NCBI GenBank assembly: GCA_965235115.1
Contig: OZ249450.1
Span: 19,468,001 to 19,532,000 of the forward strand
Length of the DNA: 64,000 bases
From: Laetmonice hystrix
Lineage: Eukaryota
Direction of reading: 5' to 3'
This document shows, one piece after another, positions 30,001 to 64,000 of the stretch. A program made the position numbers. Every line of letters starts with the position of its first letter. Position 1 is the stretch's first letter.

Positions 30001-33000
30001 GAAGCTCATTTCTGGGGTTCTGATTGGATGGTTTCACTTGACCATCCAATCGGAATTAGGTTTTCCATCTCAAGATTGCCAGGCGTTTGTTTCTCACCCG
30101 TTTCCTACCTCTGCCATGCTGATAAATCTCCCCAGTATTTTGAGAAGTGTACACGAAGTTTCCTACCTTTGCCATGCTGATTGAATCTCCCCAGTATTTT
30201 GAGAAGTTTCCAAGAAGTTTCCTACCTTTGTCATGCTGATTGAATCTCCCCAGTATTTTGAGAAGTGTACACGAAGTTTCCTACCTTTGCCATGCTGATG
30301 AATCTCCCCAGTATTTTGAGAAGTTTACAAGAAGTTTCCTACCTTTGCCATGCTGATGAATCTCCCCAGTATTTTGAGAAGTTTACAAGAAGTTTCCTAC
30401 CTTTGCCATGCTGATGAATCTCCCCAGTATTTTGAGAAGTTTACAAGAAGTTTCCTACCTTTGCCATGCTGATTGAATCTCCCCAGTATTTTGAGAAGTT
30501 TACAAGAAGTTTCCTACCTTTGCCATGCTGATAAATCTCCCCAGTATTTTGAGAAGTGTACAAGAAGTTTCCTACCTTTGCCATGCTGATGAATCTCCCC
30601 AGTATTTTGAGAAGTCTACAAGAACTTTCCTATCTTTGCCATGCTGATGAATCTCCCCAGTATTTTGAGAAGTCTACAAGAACTTTCCTATCTTTGCCAT
30701 GCTGATGAATCTCCCCAGTATTTTGAGAAGTCTACAAGAAGTTTCCTACCTTTGCCATGCTGATGAATCTCCCCAGTATTTTGAGAAGTCTACAAGAACT
30801 TTCCTATCTTTGCCATGCTGATGAATCTCCCCAGTATTTTGAGAAGTCTACAAGAACTTTCCTATCTTTGCCATGCTGATGAATCTCCCCAGTATTTTGA
30901 GAAGTCTACAAGAAGTTTCCTACCTTTGCCATGCTGATGAATCTCCCCAATATTTTGAGAAGTGTACACGAAGTTTCCTACCTTTGCCATGCTGATTGAA
31001 TCTCCCCAATATTTTGAGAAGTGTACACGAAGTTTCCTACCTTTGCCATGCTGATGAATCTCCCCAATATTTTGAGAAGTGTACACGAAGTTTCCTACCT
31101 TTGCCATGCTGATTGAATCTCCCCAGTATTTTGAGAAGTGTACAAGAAGTTTCCTACCTTTGCCATGCTGATAAATCTCCCCAGTATTTTGAGAAGTTTC
31201 CAAGAAGTTTCCTACCTTTGCCATGCTGATTGAATCTCCCCAGTATTTTGAGAAGTTTCCAAGAAGTTTCCTACCTTTGCCATGCTGATGAATCTCCCCA
31301 GTATTTTGAGAAGTTTACAAGAAGTTTCCTACCTTTGCCATGCTGATGAATCTCCCCAGTATTTTGAGAAGTGTACAAGAAGTGCGATCGCAACAATCAG
31401 GAAGAGGAGGCCCGTGAGAAACCACCAGATTCCACAGCAACATATCTTCTTCACTTTTTTCCTTATCTTCTTCTTCTCGCTGTCTATCGAACCTTCTATG
31501 TCCTTCGACATGATGGCACACTGGCAACGTTCTACCTCAGATTAGGAATGATTCTGGAAAAACAATTGATTTGAGTGCATGTTAAAGTTGAGAAAAATTC
31601 AGTAAAAATGGCAAGGATATGTTAGAAAGATACAGGTACCAAAGCCCTGGGCCCGGTTTCAGAAAGGTTAGCATCTTAACTTAAGCTCTGCTTAAGACCT
31701 CTGATTGGCTGGTCCTCTGCTGCTCAACTTCAACCAGCCAATGAGAGGCTCCAAGCAGAACTTAACTTAAGATCCTAATCTTTTTAAAACCGGCTCTTTC
31801 ATTGACTAAAGCTACCGAAATGGGCCATGCATTCTCAAAACGAAACGGTAGACTAAGAGAGAAAGAGCGTATATTTTGTGGCTTTATCCTGTATATTAAC
31901 TGTTGGTATCGTTGTGTTCACAGGGACATGTATGGCCTCTTCCTGGAACTGGTGAACACAATGGTTCTATTGTATGGTGGTCGGCACATTGGCAACCACC
32001 GACCCCAACGTGTTTCGGTCTGCAGCAGTCTGTCTTCACTGGAGGGAGGGACTTCCGACCGCAGTATTATGGGATGGCGGCAGTGGGCGGCCAGGCCGGC
32101 AGGGTCACTCACCAATATCACAGACCGCCGGTAGCTGGCCACCCGACACTCAAGCTTGTACCTTGCCTGATGTGAGACCAAACAGGTCTTACTACATGGT
32201 GAGAACTACTCCACACACATCATGTCTATGTTTCGGTTGGTTTGCTGTTCGTTTACGGTTGTTTGTTTCTTCAATTATCATCTTATCACCTTTTAGGTTT
32301 TGAACAATTTTCTCTAGATTTACTTAATTTTACTTCTCTCTTTTTTATTAAAGTTTTACAAATATATGCTGATAACTTGATAAATATGAGGTTCCTGAGA
32401 TTTGTCTTATCAATTTCAAACCGAGGAACATGTTGGTTGGTCCAAAAACTATTTCGCTTACTAATTCTGCCTGCTCTCTGTCCATTTACCCCCCGGGGGT
32501 GATAATGTTGTCACTGTCAGATTAGTGAATGTCATCCACCACAAGCAGCGTTACCGATCTATGGATTCACCGTATTCACAGTCCCTCATCTACACATCCA
32601 CAATAGTGAAAACTATTTTTTAGACAATTCATCTAATTTATATTCATCTCTTTATTTTCTTAAATATTATTTTTCAAAACACCCGGTAGCATTCCTAACA
32701 CCTTAATGAGAGATTCATTTCCATCAATTAATATCGTAACTCTTTCTGGGATTCCATCAAAATGTCAACCCAGACAGAAGATAAACATCTTTATTTCAAA
32801 ACTTGCAGAGTTTTTTTTAAAAATTCATGTAGTAGTTGATGAAAAGGTCAGAATAAATAATATTTAGGAAGCCACAAGCGTAATTAGTCTGTATGGGAGG
32901 TCAACGAACATAAAACGTCTCAAAGTTAAGGTTATTCTCGCTTGACTTGAGATTGGGGAGTAAGTTGTCTTCTCATTAAACGACGGTTTCAGGATACAGG

Positions 33001-63000: not shown

Positions 63001-64000
63001 TGAAGGCCTCCACCTTCCACCATTAAATACATTTTTGTTTTTTTGCTCGATTTTCTTCACCGAACTTGGCGGCTGGAGTTTGAGATCAAAAAGTCCTGAA
63101 AATAGAGAAAGCATGTGGCATTAAGCCATCACTATCGTACGTCATTTACCCTTTACCTTAACTTATAATAGAGAAAGCATGTGGCATTAAGCCATCACCA
63201 TCGTACGTCATTTACCCTTTACCTTAACTTATAACCTTGTCTACATTAAACAGAGAAAGCATGTGGCATTAAGCCATCACTATCGTACGTCATTGACCCT
63301 TTACCTTAACTTATAATAGAGAAAGCATGTGACATTAAGCCATCACCATCGTACGTCATTTACCCTTTACCCTAACTTATAACCTTGTCTACATTAAGAT
63401 TCCAAATGTCTGATTGTATAAACCACATTGGAAACTGTTTCCAGATGTTGATTTATCGGTAAACGTTACGTCATCATGGACACACAAAGTCCTACACTGG
63501 GCCCGTTGCATAGAAAATCAATAACTTTAGTATAACTGATGGATAATATTTATTTGTACGATACGACCAGGACGGCAGTAAGTTACGAGTGAGTTATCTT
63601 GTTGCCGTTGTATAATAATGTTCGTATAGCACTCTCGCTTGCCAACATTTTTATACAGCGCATTCCTATACATACGAGGAAAGATATCAACTTGGTTTAA
63701 TGGCCACTAGTTATTTACTAGACATTTACTGTATACCTTCTCAGCTTCTGTCTGTAACGGGTCATGTATTTATCACGACATGATACAGCACAGCCCCAAG
63801 CTCTCGACCATGTGGGCTACGCACATCTCACCGTGCATATTGCGGGGATGGGGAATTAAAATGGATTTTCAATGAAATGCCACTGCCATATCGGGAGGGG
63901 ATTATGTACCTGTGCAATAGCATTACAATACGAGTCGATTGTCATACTAAAGGCCTGTGTCCACTTGAGCGGTATGCCGCGCGTCCTAACGCCGCGTGAT

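What the first reader, a model, noticed from the sequence alone, without database searches (positions are those of the whole stretch)
30100..63397. Minisatellites in this window are preferentially anchored on splice signals
Seen: at least seven arrays in four genes contain or end within about 40 nt of a splice site. These are the donor array 30100-31381, the acceptor array 51882-52292, HHIPL introns 5, 6 and 8 (41485-42150, 48605-48978, 49575-49998), MS4A-like intron 1 (55368-55795) and the GT7 intron (63103-63397). Inference: either a mutational process seeds tandem duplications at exon-intron boundaries (transcription/splicing-coupled breaks, R-loops, or template switching with RNA intermediates), or such arrays are retained for a regulatory effect. 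Short introns make some proximity expected by chance.
Basis: partly seen in the sequence, partly recalled or inferred. Interest (0 to 1): 0.65.

Follow-up and report, generated by a model that had tools for sequence, protein, structure and literature searches.

The report
Intron minisatellites hugging splice acceptors
In this stretch of a repeat-rich animal genome, several ordinary tandem-repeat arrays inside short introns sit right against the point where the next exon begins, more often than random placement predicts, but from so few cases that only a genome-wide count can say whether it is a rule.

Summary
All seven arrays exist at the stated coordinates. Hand-built gene models put four of them 4-42 nt upstream of well-supported 3' splice sites: HHIP-like introns 5, 6 and 8, and the GT7 exon. 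Three more lie on splice sites of genes that have no homology support (the donor array, the acceptor array and "MS4A-like" intron 1).

All five are on the acceptor side. Three arrays are not anchored.

Repeat units are not enriched for donor, acceptor or branch-point motifs. The acceptor-versus-donor asymmetry is not significant (P = 0.10).

One new point: the two longest AG-free stretches in the window (421 and 303 nt) are arrays that end exactly at HHIP-like acceptors.

My best reading is locally born minisatellites in the 3' zone of short introns, tolerated because they leave splicing signals intact. Single cases of this kind and an intron-end bias of tandem repeats are already published. 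Nothing here shows a mechanism, and the sample is one window.

The parts
38711..50088 (+). HHIP-like (GSDH-domain) gene with 9 exons: 38711-39235, 39498-39583, 40120-40295, 40536-40679, 40865-40994, 42177-42316, 49017-49098, 49309-49343, 50006-50088.
   Evidence: Pfam GSDH matches three open reading frames. A local HMM built from 90 bacterial GSDH proteins hits exons a-e strongly and exons f and g weakly (E 2.9 and 0.56), colinear with the profile. All 8 introns have GT-AG ends and matching phases. Exons h and i rest on frame and phase only.
41491..42150 (+). 27-nt x 25 array at the 3' end of HHIP-like intron 5 (40995-42176). It starts 496 nt after the donor and ends 26 nt before the exon. The last unit carries CTAAC with its A 31 nt from the 3' splice site.
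48602..48974 (+). 42-nt x 8.7 pyrimidine-rich array (80% Y) at the 3' end of the 6.7-kb HHIP-like intron 6. It ends 42 nt before exon g. The 303 nt upstream of the acceptor AG contain no AG.
49245..49291 (+). Small 19-nt x 2.5 array in HHIP-like intron 7 (49099-49308). It ends 17 nt before exon h, and its unit holds CTGAC.
49575..49996 (+). 42-nt x 9.9 array in HHIP-like intron 8 (49344-50005). It ends 9 nt before the last exon, and each unit holds CTGAC and CTGAT. The 421 nt upstream of the acceptor AG contain no AG, the longest such gap in the window.
63100..63397 (-). 66-nt x 4 (148-nt x 2) array abutting the acceptor of GT7 exon X (62863-63095). The unit holds a TTAAT branch-like motif, a pyrimidine tract and an AG. 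Homology between units runs through the real acceptor AG.
60158..63095 (-). GT7 (beta-1,4-galactosyltransferase-like) gene, exons 62863-63095, 62561-62748, 62055-62177, 61724-61822 and 60158-60389 (with the stop codon). The 5' exon or exons were not found and are probably off the window.
   Evidence: Pfam Glyco_transf_7N matches two open reading frames and Glyco_transf_7C one. GT-AG ends and phases fit. The last two exons rest on frame, phase and recalled family motifs; PDB searches of them found nothing.
60858..61621 (-). 61-nt x 12.4 array in the last GT7 intron (60390-61723), 102 nt from the donor and 468 nt from the acceptor. It is not anchored.
30100..31383 (-). 'Donor array', 58 nt x 22. 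Its first unit is the last 51 nt of a putative first exon (ATG 31513 to 31333) plus the donor AAG|GTAGGA. A donor-like motif occurs 0.77 times per copy. An in-frame TAG follows the first donor, so the later copies can only act as decoys.
   Evidence: There is no family match.
29545..29674 (-). Putative exon 2 of the donor-array gene (a transmembrane segment). The strong acceptor and donor, and the phase, fit exon 1 and exon 3 (about 29083-29225).
51877..52293 (-). 'Acceptor array', 54 nt x 7.8. Read on the - strand, each unit holds a pyrimidine tract plus TATAG|GTACC. The first copy (AG at 52279-52278) would start a short terminal exon after putative exon 4.
   Evidence: The gene model is tentative.
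55371..55791 (-). 39-nt x 10.8 array in putative intron 1 (55360-56203) of the 'MS4A-like' gene. It ends 11 nt before putative exon 2 (55261-55359). A 161-nt element with an 8-bp target duplication interrupts it at 55800-55960.
51822..56257 (-). Tentative multi-pass membrane ('MS4A-like') gene. Exons are 56204-56257, 55261-55359, 53147-53287 and 52550-52663, all in phase 0, plus a terminal exon in the acceptor array.
   Evidence: Open frames, GT-AG ends and phases. There is no Pfam, PDB or Atlas support.
53919..54598 (-). 26-nt x 25 array in the middle of putative MS4A-like intron 2 (53288-55260), 662 and 631 nt from the two splice sites. It is not anchored.
46166..46619 (+). 33-nt x 13.8 array deep inside HHIP-like intron 6, just downstream of a nested antisense receptor open reading frame. 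It is not anchored.

Best explanation
These are ordinary, locally generated intronic minisatellites in a compact, minisatellite-rich animal genome that I do not take for human.

Shown:
- Each array is built from its own local sequence.
- Five arrays sit in the last 4-42 nt-bounded zone before a 3' splice site.
- Two or three arrays are tandem duplications that include the junction itself.

Inferred:
- A founding tandem duplication, by slippage or unequal exchange, arose in the branch-point to pyrimidine-tract zone of an ordinary short intron and then expanded.
- The array persists there because the copy nearest the exon, or the 9-42 unique nt, still provides the branch point, pyrimidine tract and AG.
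- The upstream copies lack usable AGs, so the spliceosome still reaches the authentic acceptor.
- Copies of a donor or acceptor in the junction-spanning arrays act at most as decoys.

On this reading the arrays are by-products that splicing tolerates and filters. They are not elements seeded by splice signals.
For: - The arrays are unrelated to one another and share no flanks, so each was born in place.
- The 9 array-free introns of the same genes are 114-536 nt long. Array-bearing introns shrink to 163-570 nt when the array is removed. They are therefore ordinary short introns with an expansion.
- Position: 5 of 8 arrays lie within 42 nt of an acceptor against 1.11 expected, P = 8.8e-4 (conservative variant 2.1e-3).
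- Composition on the sense strand matches the 3' zone. All 6 anchored arrays are richer in pyrimidines (0.45-0.80) and poorer in AG (0.24-6.0 per 100 nt) than all 3 non-anchored ones (0.33-0.43; 10.3-14.8). Mann-Whitney P = 0.012.
- Of 34 array-strands, 4 have at most 1.7 AG per 100 nt. Three of the four are the sense strands of the HHIP-like anchored arrays.
- The two longest AG-free gaps among 7,568 in the window (421 and 303 nt; the next are 165 and 152) end at the acceptors of exons i and g.
- In the GT7 array the homology runs through the acceptor AG.
- In intron 7 the unit start TTGTTTATA recurs just after the array, as slippage between short direct repeats would leave it.
- Published parallels (passages read): the ABCA7 repeat that begins with the exon 18 donor GT (PMC5954066), and tandem repeats concentrated toward intron ends in 31 plant and algal genomes (PMC3887541).
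Against: - A tolerance filter does not by itself explain why arrays should be commoner near the acceptor than in mid-intron. That needs a mutational bias, which is not shown.
- Two of the anchored arrays (GT7 and MS4A-like intron 1) are not AG-poor (6.0 and 4.5 per 100 nt).
- AG poverty and pyrimidine richness are confounded. Each HHIP-like unit alone has a 10-21% chance of being that AG-poor. The joint value of 0.002 is post hoc.
- Array-free introns are only slightly richer in pyrimidines in their last 60 nt (0.53) than in their first 60 nt (0.47).
- Three intronic arrays are not anchored.
- The acceptor-versus-donor asymmetry is not significant (P = 0.10).
- Three of the seven cited arrays rest on gene models with no homology support.
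- There are no transcript data.
Confidence: 0.45

Rival explanations
1. Chance plus ascertainment. In a window that is 16% minisatellite and has introns of a few hundred nt, some arrays fall next to splice sites. A reader looking for patterns picked them out.
For: - The test rests on only 8 arrays in 3 genes.
- The 42-nt threshold was set after the fact.
- With the best-supported models alone the result is 3 of 5, P = 5e-3.
- Later insertions inflate the free space. A 161-nt element sits inside the MS4A-like array, and intron 6 holds two nested genes.
- Units carry splice-like motifs at the chance rate.
- Three intronic arrays, one array downstream of a gene and six of unknown context are not anchored.
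Against: - The excess holds under the intron-matched null (P = 8.8e-4; conservative 2.1e-3) and under whole-window placement (0 of 20,000 simulations).
- The anchored arrays also differ in sense-strand composition.
- They own the two longest AG-free gaps of the window.
Confidence: 0.33
2. Regulatory retention. The arrays are kept because they tune splicing. AG-free arrays with a branch-point-like motif in each unit would act as extended AG exclusion zones with many alternative branch points. Donor and acceptor arrays would act as decoy sites that divert transcripts to unproductive products.
For: - AG-free zones of 421 and 303 nt end at acceptors. In humans only 838 of 67,334 introns have zones of 100 nt or more, and these are linked to alternative splicing (PMC1431707, passages read).
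- CTGAC or CTAAC occurs in most units of the intron 5 and intron 8 arrays (0.70 and 1.79 per copy).
- Repeat length in the ABCA7 array changes exon skipping, and one repeat unit can be retained (PMC5954066, passages read).
- A repeat lying between branch site and 3' splice site changes splicing at NARS2 (PMC10078293, passages read).
Against: - Good branch-like motifs also lie at the usual 18-31 nt from the acceptors, so distant branch points are not needed.
- There are no conservation, polymorphism or transcript data.
- Units are mostly 92-99% alike, as in young or homogenised neutral arrays.
- Motif content is at the chance level.
Confidence: 0.1
3. Transcription- or splicing-coupled breaks, R-loops or template switching on RNA intermediates seed duplications at exon-intron boundaries.
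For: - Two or three arrays duplicate the junction itself: the donor array, the acceptor array and the GT7 array.
- The positional excess.
Against: - No array unit has the limits expected of a lariat or a cDNA product. Units do not run from a 5' splice site to a branch A.
- Five of the arrays stop short of the junction by 9-42 nt.
- Confirmed donors show no excess (0 of 14).
- Nothing in a DNA sequence alone can show R-loops or breaks.
Confidence: 0.07
4. The arrays are internal repeats of mobile elements (Helitron- or MITE-type) that insert near acceptors.
For: - Mobile-element fragments do occur in the window. Examples are the inverted pairs 33737-33842 / 37554-37659 and 37703-37768 / 62384-62449, and an element with an 8-bp target duplication at 55800-55960.
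Against: - No two arrays share unit or flank sequence at a 14-nt seed.
- The unique flank toward the exon is only 4-42 nt, which leaves no room for an element terminus.
- The one clear insertion interrupts an array rather than carrying it.
Confidence: 0.05

Closest known systems
Human ABCA7 intron 18 VNTR (De Roeck et al. 2018, PMC5954066; passages read)
   Same: It is a tandem array that starts at and includes a canonical splice donor. Every unit begins with GT. A cryptic donor in the second unit can be used, and the product is out of frame. The 30100-31383 array has the same anatomy: its first unit is the exon end plus the donor, a donor-like motif occurs 0.77 times per copy, and a stop follows the first donor in frame.
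   Different: Here the unit is 58 nt and also copies 49 nt of putative coding sequence. The host gene is only a model without homology or transcripts. No effect on splicing is known.
Exons with extended AG exclusion zones and distant branch points (Gooding et al. 2006, PMC1431707; passages read)
   Same: AG-free stretches of 303 and 421 nt end at the acceptors of HHIP-like exons g and i. They are as long as the verified human cases (287-438 nt).
   Different: Here the zone is a young tandem array. Ordinary branch-like motifs lie 18-31 nt from the acceptor, so a distant branch point is not required. There is no branch-point mapping.
Tandem repeats concentrated toward intron ends in plants and green algae (Zhao et al. 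2014, PMC3887541; passages read)
   Same: It reports a genome-wide U-shaped distribution of tandem repeats within introns, strongest in two green algae.
   Different: That study is dominated by short motifs, covers plants and algae, and found excess at both ends. Here the repeats are 19-66-nt minisatellites in an animal, on the acceptor side only, in one window.
Repeats between branch site and 3' splice site that shift splicing (NARS2 in Hamanaka et al. 2023, PMC10078293), and the CeRep25B minisatellite near alternative exons in C. elegans (Glauser 2014, PMC4039745) (passages read)
   Same: Both are intronic repeats close to splice sites that are linked to splicing outcome.
   Different: Those links rest on expression or annotation data. 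None exist here. CeRep25B is one dispersed family, whereas these arrays are all different.
Intron gain by tandem duplication of an AGGT-bearing segment (reviewed in PMC3443670, passages read; Zhuo et al. 2007 seen only as a title in a reference list)
   Same: It involves tandem duplication of a segment that carries AG|GT and so multiplies splice sites.
   Different: In the donor-array gene the intron runs 425 nt beyond the array to an unrelated acceptor. The intron was therefore not created by the duplication.

Membership tests
Splice-donor-containing intronic VNTR (ABCA7 type) | The array starts at, and includes, the canonical donor of the upstream exon. | tested here: inconclusive
   The first unit of 30100-31383 (- strand) is the last 51 nt of a putative exon plus AAG|GTAGGA. 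The phases of exons 1-3 fit the open frames. The exon has no family match and there are no transcripts.
Splice-donor-containing intronic VNTR (ABCA7 type) | Each unit carries a donor-like site. | tested here: met
   A donor-like motif (MAG|GTRAGT with at most 2 mismatches) occurs 0.77 times per copy on the - strand.
Splice-donor-containing intronic VNTR (ABCA7 type) | Cryptic donor use or a length-dependent effect on splicing is seen in RNA. | not testable with these tools
   No transcript data are available.
Distant-branch-point exons with extended AG exclusion zone | [quoted passage not shown] | tested here: met
   The zones are 421 nt (exon i) and 303 nt (exon g). The other 13 confirmed acceptors have 9-91 nt.
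Distant-branch-point exons with extended AG exclusion zone | The branch point and pyrimidine tract lie at the far end of the zone, with no good candidate near the acceptor. | tested here: not met
   Branch-like motifs lie near the acceptors: CTGAC and CTGAT at 27 and 18 nt in intron 8, and TTAAC at 19 nt in intron 6.
Intron created by tandem duplication of an AGGT segment | The intron is bounded by the two copies of the duplicated segment. | tested here: not met
   The putative intron 29675-31332 ends at an acceptor 425 nt beyond the array, in unrelated sequence.
Mobile-element-borne internal arrays | The same unit and flanks, or terminal repeats, are found at several arrays or loci. | tested here: not met
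   No flanks or units are shared among the 17 arrays at a 14-nt seed. Other loci of the genome could not be searched.
Genome-wide intron-end bias of tandem repeats | There is an excess of repeats near intron ends over an intron-matched null across the genome. | not testable with these tools
   Only this window is on hand. In it, 5 of 8 arrays are anchored against 1.11 expected.
HHIP-like (HHIPL) proteins | A glucose/sorbosone dehydrogenase-type beta-propeller domain. | tested here: met
   Pfam GSDH matches three exon open reading frames (E 4.6e-6, 2.9e-5 and 3.4e-4; only the first passes the curated cut-off). The local HMM hits five exons at E 5e-39 to 2.5e-5.
HHIP-like (HHIPL) proteins | A cysteine-rich N-terminal domain ahead of the propeller (this feature is recalled, not taken from a call). 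| tested here: not met
   The open frame starts at ATG 38711 with a signal-peptide-like stretch that runs straight into the GSDH match. No upstream exon was found among the open reading frames of 33000-38686.
Glycosyltransferase family 7 (beta-1,4-galactosyltransferase) | The Glyco_transf_7N and Glyco_transf_7C domains. | tested here: met
   E 1.6e-27 and 1.2e-20 for 7N. E 2.6e-17 for 7C.
MS4A / CD20-like | A match to the CD20-like family profile or to a solved CD20 chain. | tested here: inconclusive
   No Pfam hit at E <= 0.05 for any exon open reading frame. No CD20 hit in PDB for the exon 2 frame. The Atlas scored at most 0.81 for exon 3. Single exons of 33-47 residues have little power, and the joined protein was not searched.

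The most novel reading that the evidence does not exclude
In this species, minisatellites are born preferentially in the branch-point to pyrimidine-tract zone of short introns. Selection against new AGs then shapes them into tandem arrays that work as very long AG exclusion zones with a branch point in every unit. Array length would then set which branch point is used and how efficiently the downstream exon is spliced. Junction-spanning arrays, with 22 donors or 8 acceptors, would act as built-in decoys that divert part of the transcripts to unproductive products. That would make a genome-wide, fast-mutating layer of splicing control.
Probability: 0.12. Interest if true: 0.65.

Novelty: new member of a known kind. 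Interest (0 to 1): 0.35.

Why it matters
If the acceptor-side excess held genome-wide, it would point to one of two things. One is a mutational hot zone at intron 3' ends. The other is a class of hypervariable arrays that the spliceosome must read through. Either would bear on how short introns grow and on how repeat-length polymorphism could alter splicing.

As it stands, the window adds a handful of clear cases to phenomena already described elsewhere: repeat arrays that include a splice site, extended AG-free zones, and tandem repeats biased toward intron ends.

It also offers one simple measurable signature to take genome-wide. Sense-strand AG poverty of acceptor-abutting arrays can be compared with that of mid-intron arrays.

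Tried and rejected
HOMOLOGUE SEARCHES.
- For the first HHIP-like exon, 610 proteins scored E <= 0.001. Every named protein among the 120 listed was a bacterial sugar dehydrogenase.
- For a GT7 exon, 19 candidates were found and none scored.
- That collection therefore gave no animal proteins to align against the window, and the exon models had to be built by hand. The third search and the representative-library job were not spent.

STRUCTURE AND ATLAS SEARCHES.
- PDB sequence searches of four short exons gave nothing usable. The best row was a chance match at E = 1.4.
- The Atlas look-up of one MS4A-like exon scored at most 0.81.

SPLICE-SITE MATRICES.
- Weight matrices trained on the 14 donors and 15 acceptors of the window were too noisy. 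A textbook-looking acceptor scored -3.2.
- I replaced them with simple consensus rules.
- My first guess for the MS4A-like exon 1 donor (56190) was wrong. I corrected it to 56203 after reading the sequence.

OTHER NEGATIVE OR DISCARDED RESULTS.
- Rfam at gathering thresholds and the tRNA scan found nothing, so the arrays are not known intronic RNA genes.
- In-register homology does not continue from the array into the acceptor flank for HHIP-like introns 5, 6 and 8 or for MS4A-like intron 1. My first impression by eye that the intron 5 pyrimidine tract is a decayed unit is therefore not supported in register.
- The idea that units equal lariat circles (5' splice site to branch A) does not fit any unit.

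OPEN READING FRAMES LEFT OUT OF THE PFAM SCANS. All lay wholly inside arrays.
- 13 of the 244 frames of 50 aa or more in positions 1-29000.
- 17 of 62 small - strand frames in 53000-58500.
- 9 of 67 small - strand frames in 58500-64000 (two more had already been scanned), and 6 of 84 small + strand frames.

LITERATURE.
- Searches for a described acceptor-side bias of minisatellites in animals found none.
- Zhuo et al. 2007 is not held.

NOT DONE.
The spliced proteins were therefore never searched whole.
- No other part of this genome and no related species could be reached. The closed collections were not used, and the bacterial and archaeal genome collection was irrelevant.

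
Full report
WHAT THE WINDOW IS

The 64-kb window has no N, is about 45% G+C, and has a CpG observed/expected ratio of 0.65. Seventeen tandem arrays of 150 nt or more cover 15.9% of it. It is gene-dense, with introns of a few hundred nt. I take it for an animal genome that I cannot name, and not for human. The SF3B6-like, GT7 and HHIP-like genes have introns of 114-536 nt, and two intronless receptor genes are nested in one intron.

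No animal homologues could be pulled from the protein collection. For the first HHIP-like exon, every named protein among the 120 listed was a bacterial sugar dehydrogenase, and a GT7 exon found nothing. I therefore built gene models by hand from four kinds of evidence:
- stop-to-stop open reading frames scanned against Pfam;
- a local HMM of 90 bacterial GSDH proteins run over 3,288 open-frame translations;
- GT-AG ends;
- continuity of reading phase.

Each exon was searched on its own. The joined proteins were never assembled or searched.

GENE MODELS

(a) An HHIP-like secreted GSDH-domain gene lies on the + strand with nine exons, 38711-50088.
- Exons a-e have strong HMM or Pfam hits.
- Exons f and g have weak but colinear hits (E 2.9 and 0.56).
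- Exons h (35 nt) and i (a hydrophobic tail and the stop) rest on frame and phase only.

(b) A GT7 galactosyltransferase gene lies on the - strand with five exons in the window.

(c) An SF3B6-like gene lies on the + strand and ends at about 24689.

(d) Two 7tm_1 open reading frames lie antisense inside HHIP-like intron 6.

(e) A tentative - strand gene has a first exon (ATG 31513 to 31333) that ends in AAG|GTAGGA. Exons 2 (29545-29674) and 3 fit in phase.

Its exons are 56204-56257, 55261-55359, 53147-53287 and 52550-52663, all in phase 0. No Pfam, PDB or Atlas match supports the name.

THE OBSERVATION

All seven arrays are real.

Distances from the array end to the exon, for the supported models:
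- HHIP-like intron 5: 26 nt.
- HHIP-like intron 6: 42 nt.
- HHIP-like intron 8: 9 nt.
- GT7 exon X: 4 nt. Here unit-to-unit homology continues through the acceptor AG, so the unit contains the branch-like motif, the pyrimidine tract and the AG.

For the tentative models:
- MS4A-like intron 1: 11 nt.
- The donor array begins with the last 51 nt of exon 1 plus the donor.
- The acceptor array, read on the - strand, carries a pyrimidine tract plus TATAG|GT in each unit. Its first copy would open a short terminal exon.

Against the pattern:
- The GT7 last-intron array lies 102 nt from the donor and 468 nt from the acceptor.
- The MS4A-like intron 2 array lies 662 and 631 nt from the two sites.
- The 46166-46619 array is not anchored.
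- The 25101-25620 array lies beyond the SF3B6-like stop.
- Six arrays have no known context: five in the first 18 kb, where the 150 open reading frames of positions 1-17253 that were scanned gave no credible Pfam family, and 56644-57196 upstream of MS4A-like exon 1.

IS IT MORE THAN CHANCE?

- 5 of 8 large arrays lie within 42 nt of a splice site against 1.11 expected (Poisson-binomial P = 8.8e-4).
- Fisher's combination of the per-array probabilities gives 4.4e-3 for the nearest end and 3.1e-4 for the acceptor end.
- A conservative version removes the nested genes from the free space of intron 6 and counts the interrupted part of the MS4A-like array. It gives P = 2.1e-3.
- The best-supported models alone give 3 of 5, P = 5e-3.

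The second test places all 17 arrays at random outside exons. It gives 0.13 expected against 4 observed, and 0 of 20,000 trials reached 4.

Caveats:
- The threshold was set after seeing the data.
- The window was chosen because it looked interesting.
- The number of arrays is tiny.
- The acceptor-side preference is not significant in itself (4 of 15 confirmed acceptors against 0 of 14 donors, P = 0.10).

ARE THE UNITS MADE OF SPLICE SIGNALS?

They are not. Over 17 arrays and both strands, I counted units that carry a motif in at least half of their copies:
- donor-like: 5 of 34 (4.2 expected);
- acceptor-like: 5 of 34 (5.3 expected);
- CTRAY: 8 of 34 (7.0 expected).

Several of the hits are on the antisense strand or in arrays of unknown context.

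WHAT IS DISTINCTIVE

On the sense strand, all six anchored arrays differ from all three non-anchored ones (Mann-Whitney P = 0.012).
- Pyrimidine fraction is 0.45-0.80 in the anchored arrays against 0.33-0.43.
- AG density is 0.24-6.0 per 100 nt against 10.3-14.8.

Of the 34 array-strands, only 4 have at most 1.7 AG per 100 nt. Three of these are the sense strands of the HHIP-like arrays.

The two longest AG-free gaps of the whole window, on either strand, are 421 and 303 nt out of 7,568 gaps; the next longest are 165 and 152. These two are exactly the arrays that run up to the acceptors of exons i and g. The other 13 confirmed acceptors have 9-91 nt.

Each unit taken alone has a 10-21% chance of being this AG-poor. 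The GT7 and MS4A-like arrays are not AG-poor. This is therefore a lead, not proof.

HOW IT MOST LIKELY WORKS

The arrays are unrelated to each other and share no flanks. The nine array-free introns of the same genes are 114-536 nt long. Array-bearing introns return to 163-570 nt when the array is taken out.

I read them as local tandem duplications that arose in the last 20-90 nt of ordinary short introns and then expanded. They are tolerated because two things hold:
- the copy next to the exon, or the 9-42 unique nt, keeps the branch point, pyrimidine tract and AG;
- the upstream copies offer no competing AG.

Junction-spanning duplications (the donor array, the acceptor array and the GT7 array) multiply a splice site. 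In the donor array an in-frame TAG follows the first donor, so the other 21 or so copies can only be decoys.

Shown: the positions, the composition and the local origin. Inferred: slippage as the founding event, the filter against AG, and any effect on splicing. A tolerance filter alone does not explain an excess over mid-intron positions. That would need a mutational bias, or it is chance. I give the tolerance-plus-local-origin reading 0.45 and plain chance with ascertainment 0.33.

COMPARISON WITH WHAT IS KNOWN

- A repeat array that begins with, and includes, a splice donor is described for human ABCA7, with use of a cryptic donor in the second unit (PMC5954066, passages read).
- Extended AG exclusion zones of 287-438 nt mark human exons with distant branch points and frequent alternative splicing (PMC1431707, passages read). 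Here, however, ordinary branch-like motifs lie 18-31 nt from the acceptors, so that defining feature is not met.
- Tandem repeats are reported to concentrate toward intron ends in 31 plant and algal genomes (PMC3887541, passages read).
- A repeat between branch site and 3' splice site changes splicing at NARS2 (PMC10078293, passages read). Its supplementary figures could not be seen.
- A minisatellite family is over-represented near alternative exons in C. elegans (PMC4039745, passages read).
- Intron gain by tandem duplication of an AGGT segment (PMC3443670, passages read) does not fit the donor-array intron, which ends in unrelated sequence 425 nt past the array.
- Four literature searches found no report of an acceptor-side bias of minisatellites in animals.

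VERDICT

Three limits apply:
- the claim that units are anchored 'on splice signals' is not borne out by motif content;
- the individual phenomena are already known.

It is a reasonable hypothesis for a genome-wide test, and the AG-free acceptor-abutting arrays give it a concrete signature to look for.

What stayed unchecked: the rest of this genome, related species, transcripts, and the spliced proteins as wholes.

Noticed in passing
window 43459-44508 (-) and 46736-47725 (-): Two intronless rhodopsin-type receptor open reading frames (Pfam 7tm_1, E 2.9e-13 and 4.5e-13) are nested antisense inside the 6.7-kb HHIP-like intron 6.
   Followed up: partly
window 46042-46647 (-), array 46166-46619: The 33-nt array is open in several frames. 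Its - strand translation matches the Pfam 'OGFr_III' repeat at E 2.3e-34, and its + strand translation gives weaker matches. It starts about 115 nt downstream of the second receptor open reading frame. I did not resolve whether it is a coding repeat, a 3' UTR repeat or a low-complexity artefact.
   Followed up: no
window 55800-55960: A 161-nt element has 11-nt terminal inverted repeats (GGGCGGATTCA / TGGATCCGCCC) and an 8-bp target duplication (ACACTCAG). It sits inside the 39-nt array, and a decayed unit lies beyond it (55969-56030). It is the only copy in the window.
   Followed up: yes
window 23867-24689 (+): This is an SF3B6 (p14)-like gene. Two RRM_1 exon hits and a short last exon are separated by introns of 232 and 230 nt. 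The gene name is from recall of the human protein, not from a search.
   Followed up: partly
window 33737-33842 / 37554-37659; 18751-18838 / 36775-36862; 37703-37768 / 62384-62449; 37564-37604 / 62506-62546: These dispersed inverted matches of 41-106 nt at 76-85% identity are probably copies of one or two small mobile-element families. One copy lies in the GT7 intron between exons Y and Z.
   Followed up: no
window 7788-7804 (G run) and 57810-57830 (C run), also 41365-41377, 55120-55132, 52903-52913, 29846-29854: Homopolymer G or C runs of 9-17 nt recur, sometimes next to (GT)n and directly beside an array (7805-8247). They may mark a common element or a mutational quirk.
   Followed up: no
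window 38711-38830 (+): The HHIP-like gene seems to start with a signal-peptide-like stretch that runs straight into the GSDH propeller. The cysteine-rich N-terminal domain that I recall for vertebrate HHIP-like proteins is missing.
   Followed up: partly
window 63100-63397 (-): Each 66-nt unit reads like a miniature intron: GTAAAG, then TTAAT, then a pyrimidine tract, then TTAAG|GTAAAG. The unit junctions therefore resemble recursive splice sites, with an acceptor fused to a donor. This was not tested.
   Followed up: no
window 60858-61621 (-): The non-anchored GT7 array carries a donor-like motif in every unit on the sense strand (1.04 per copy). It is AG-rich on the sense strand (13.2 per 100 nt) and AG-poor on the antisense strand (1.4).
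   Followed up: no
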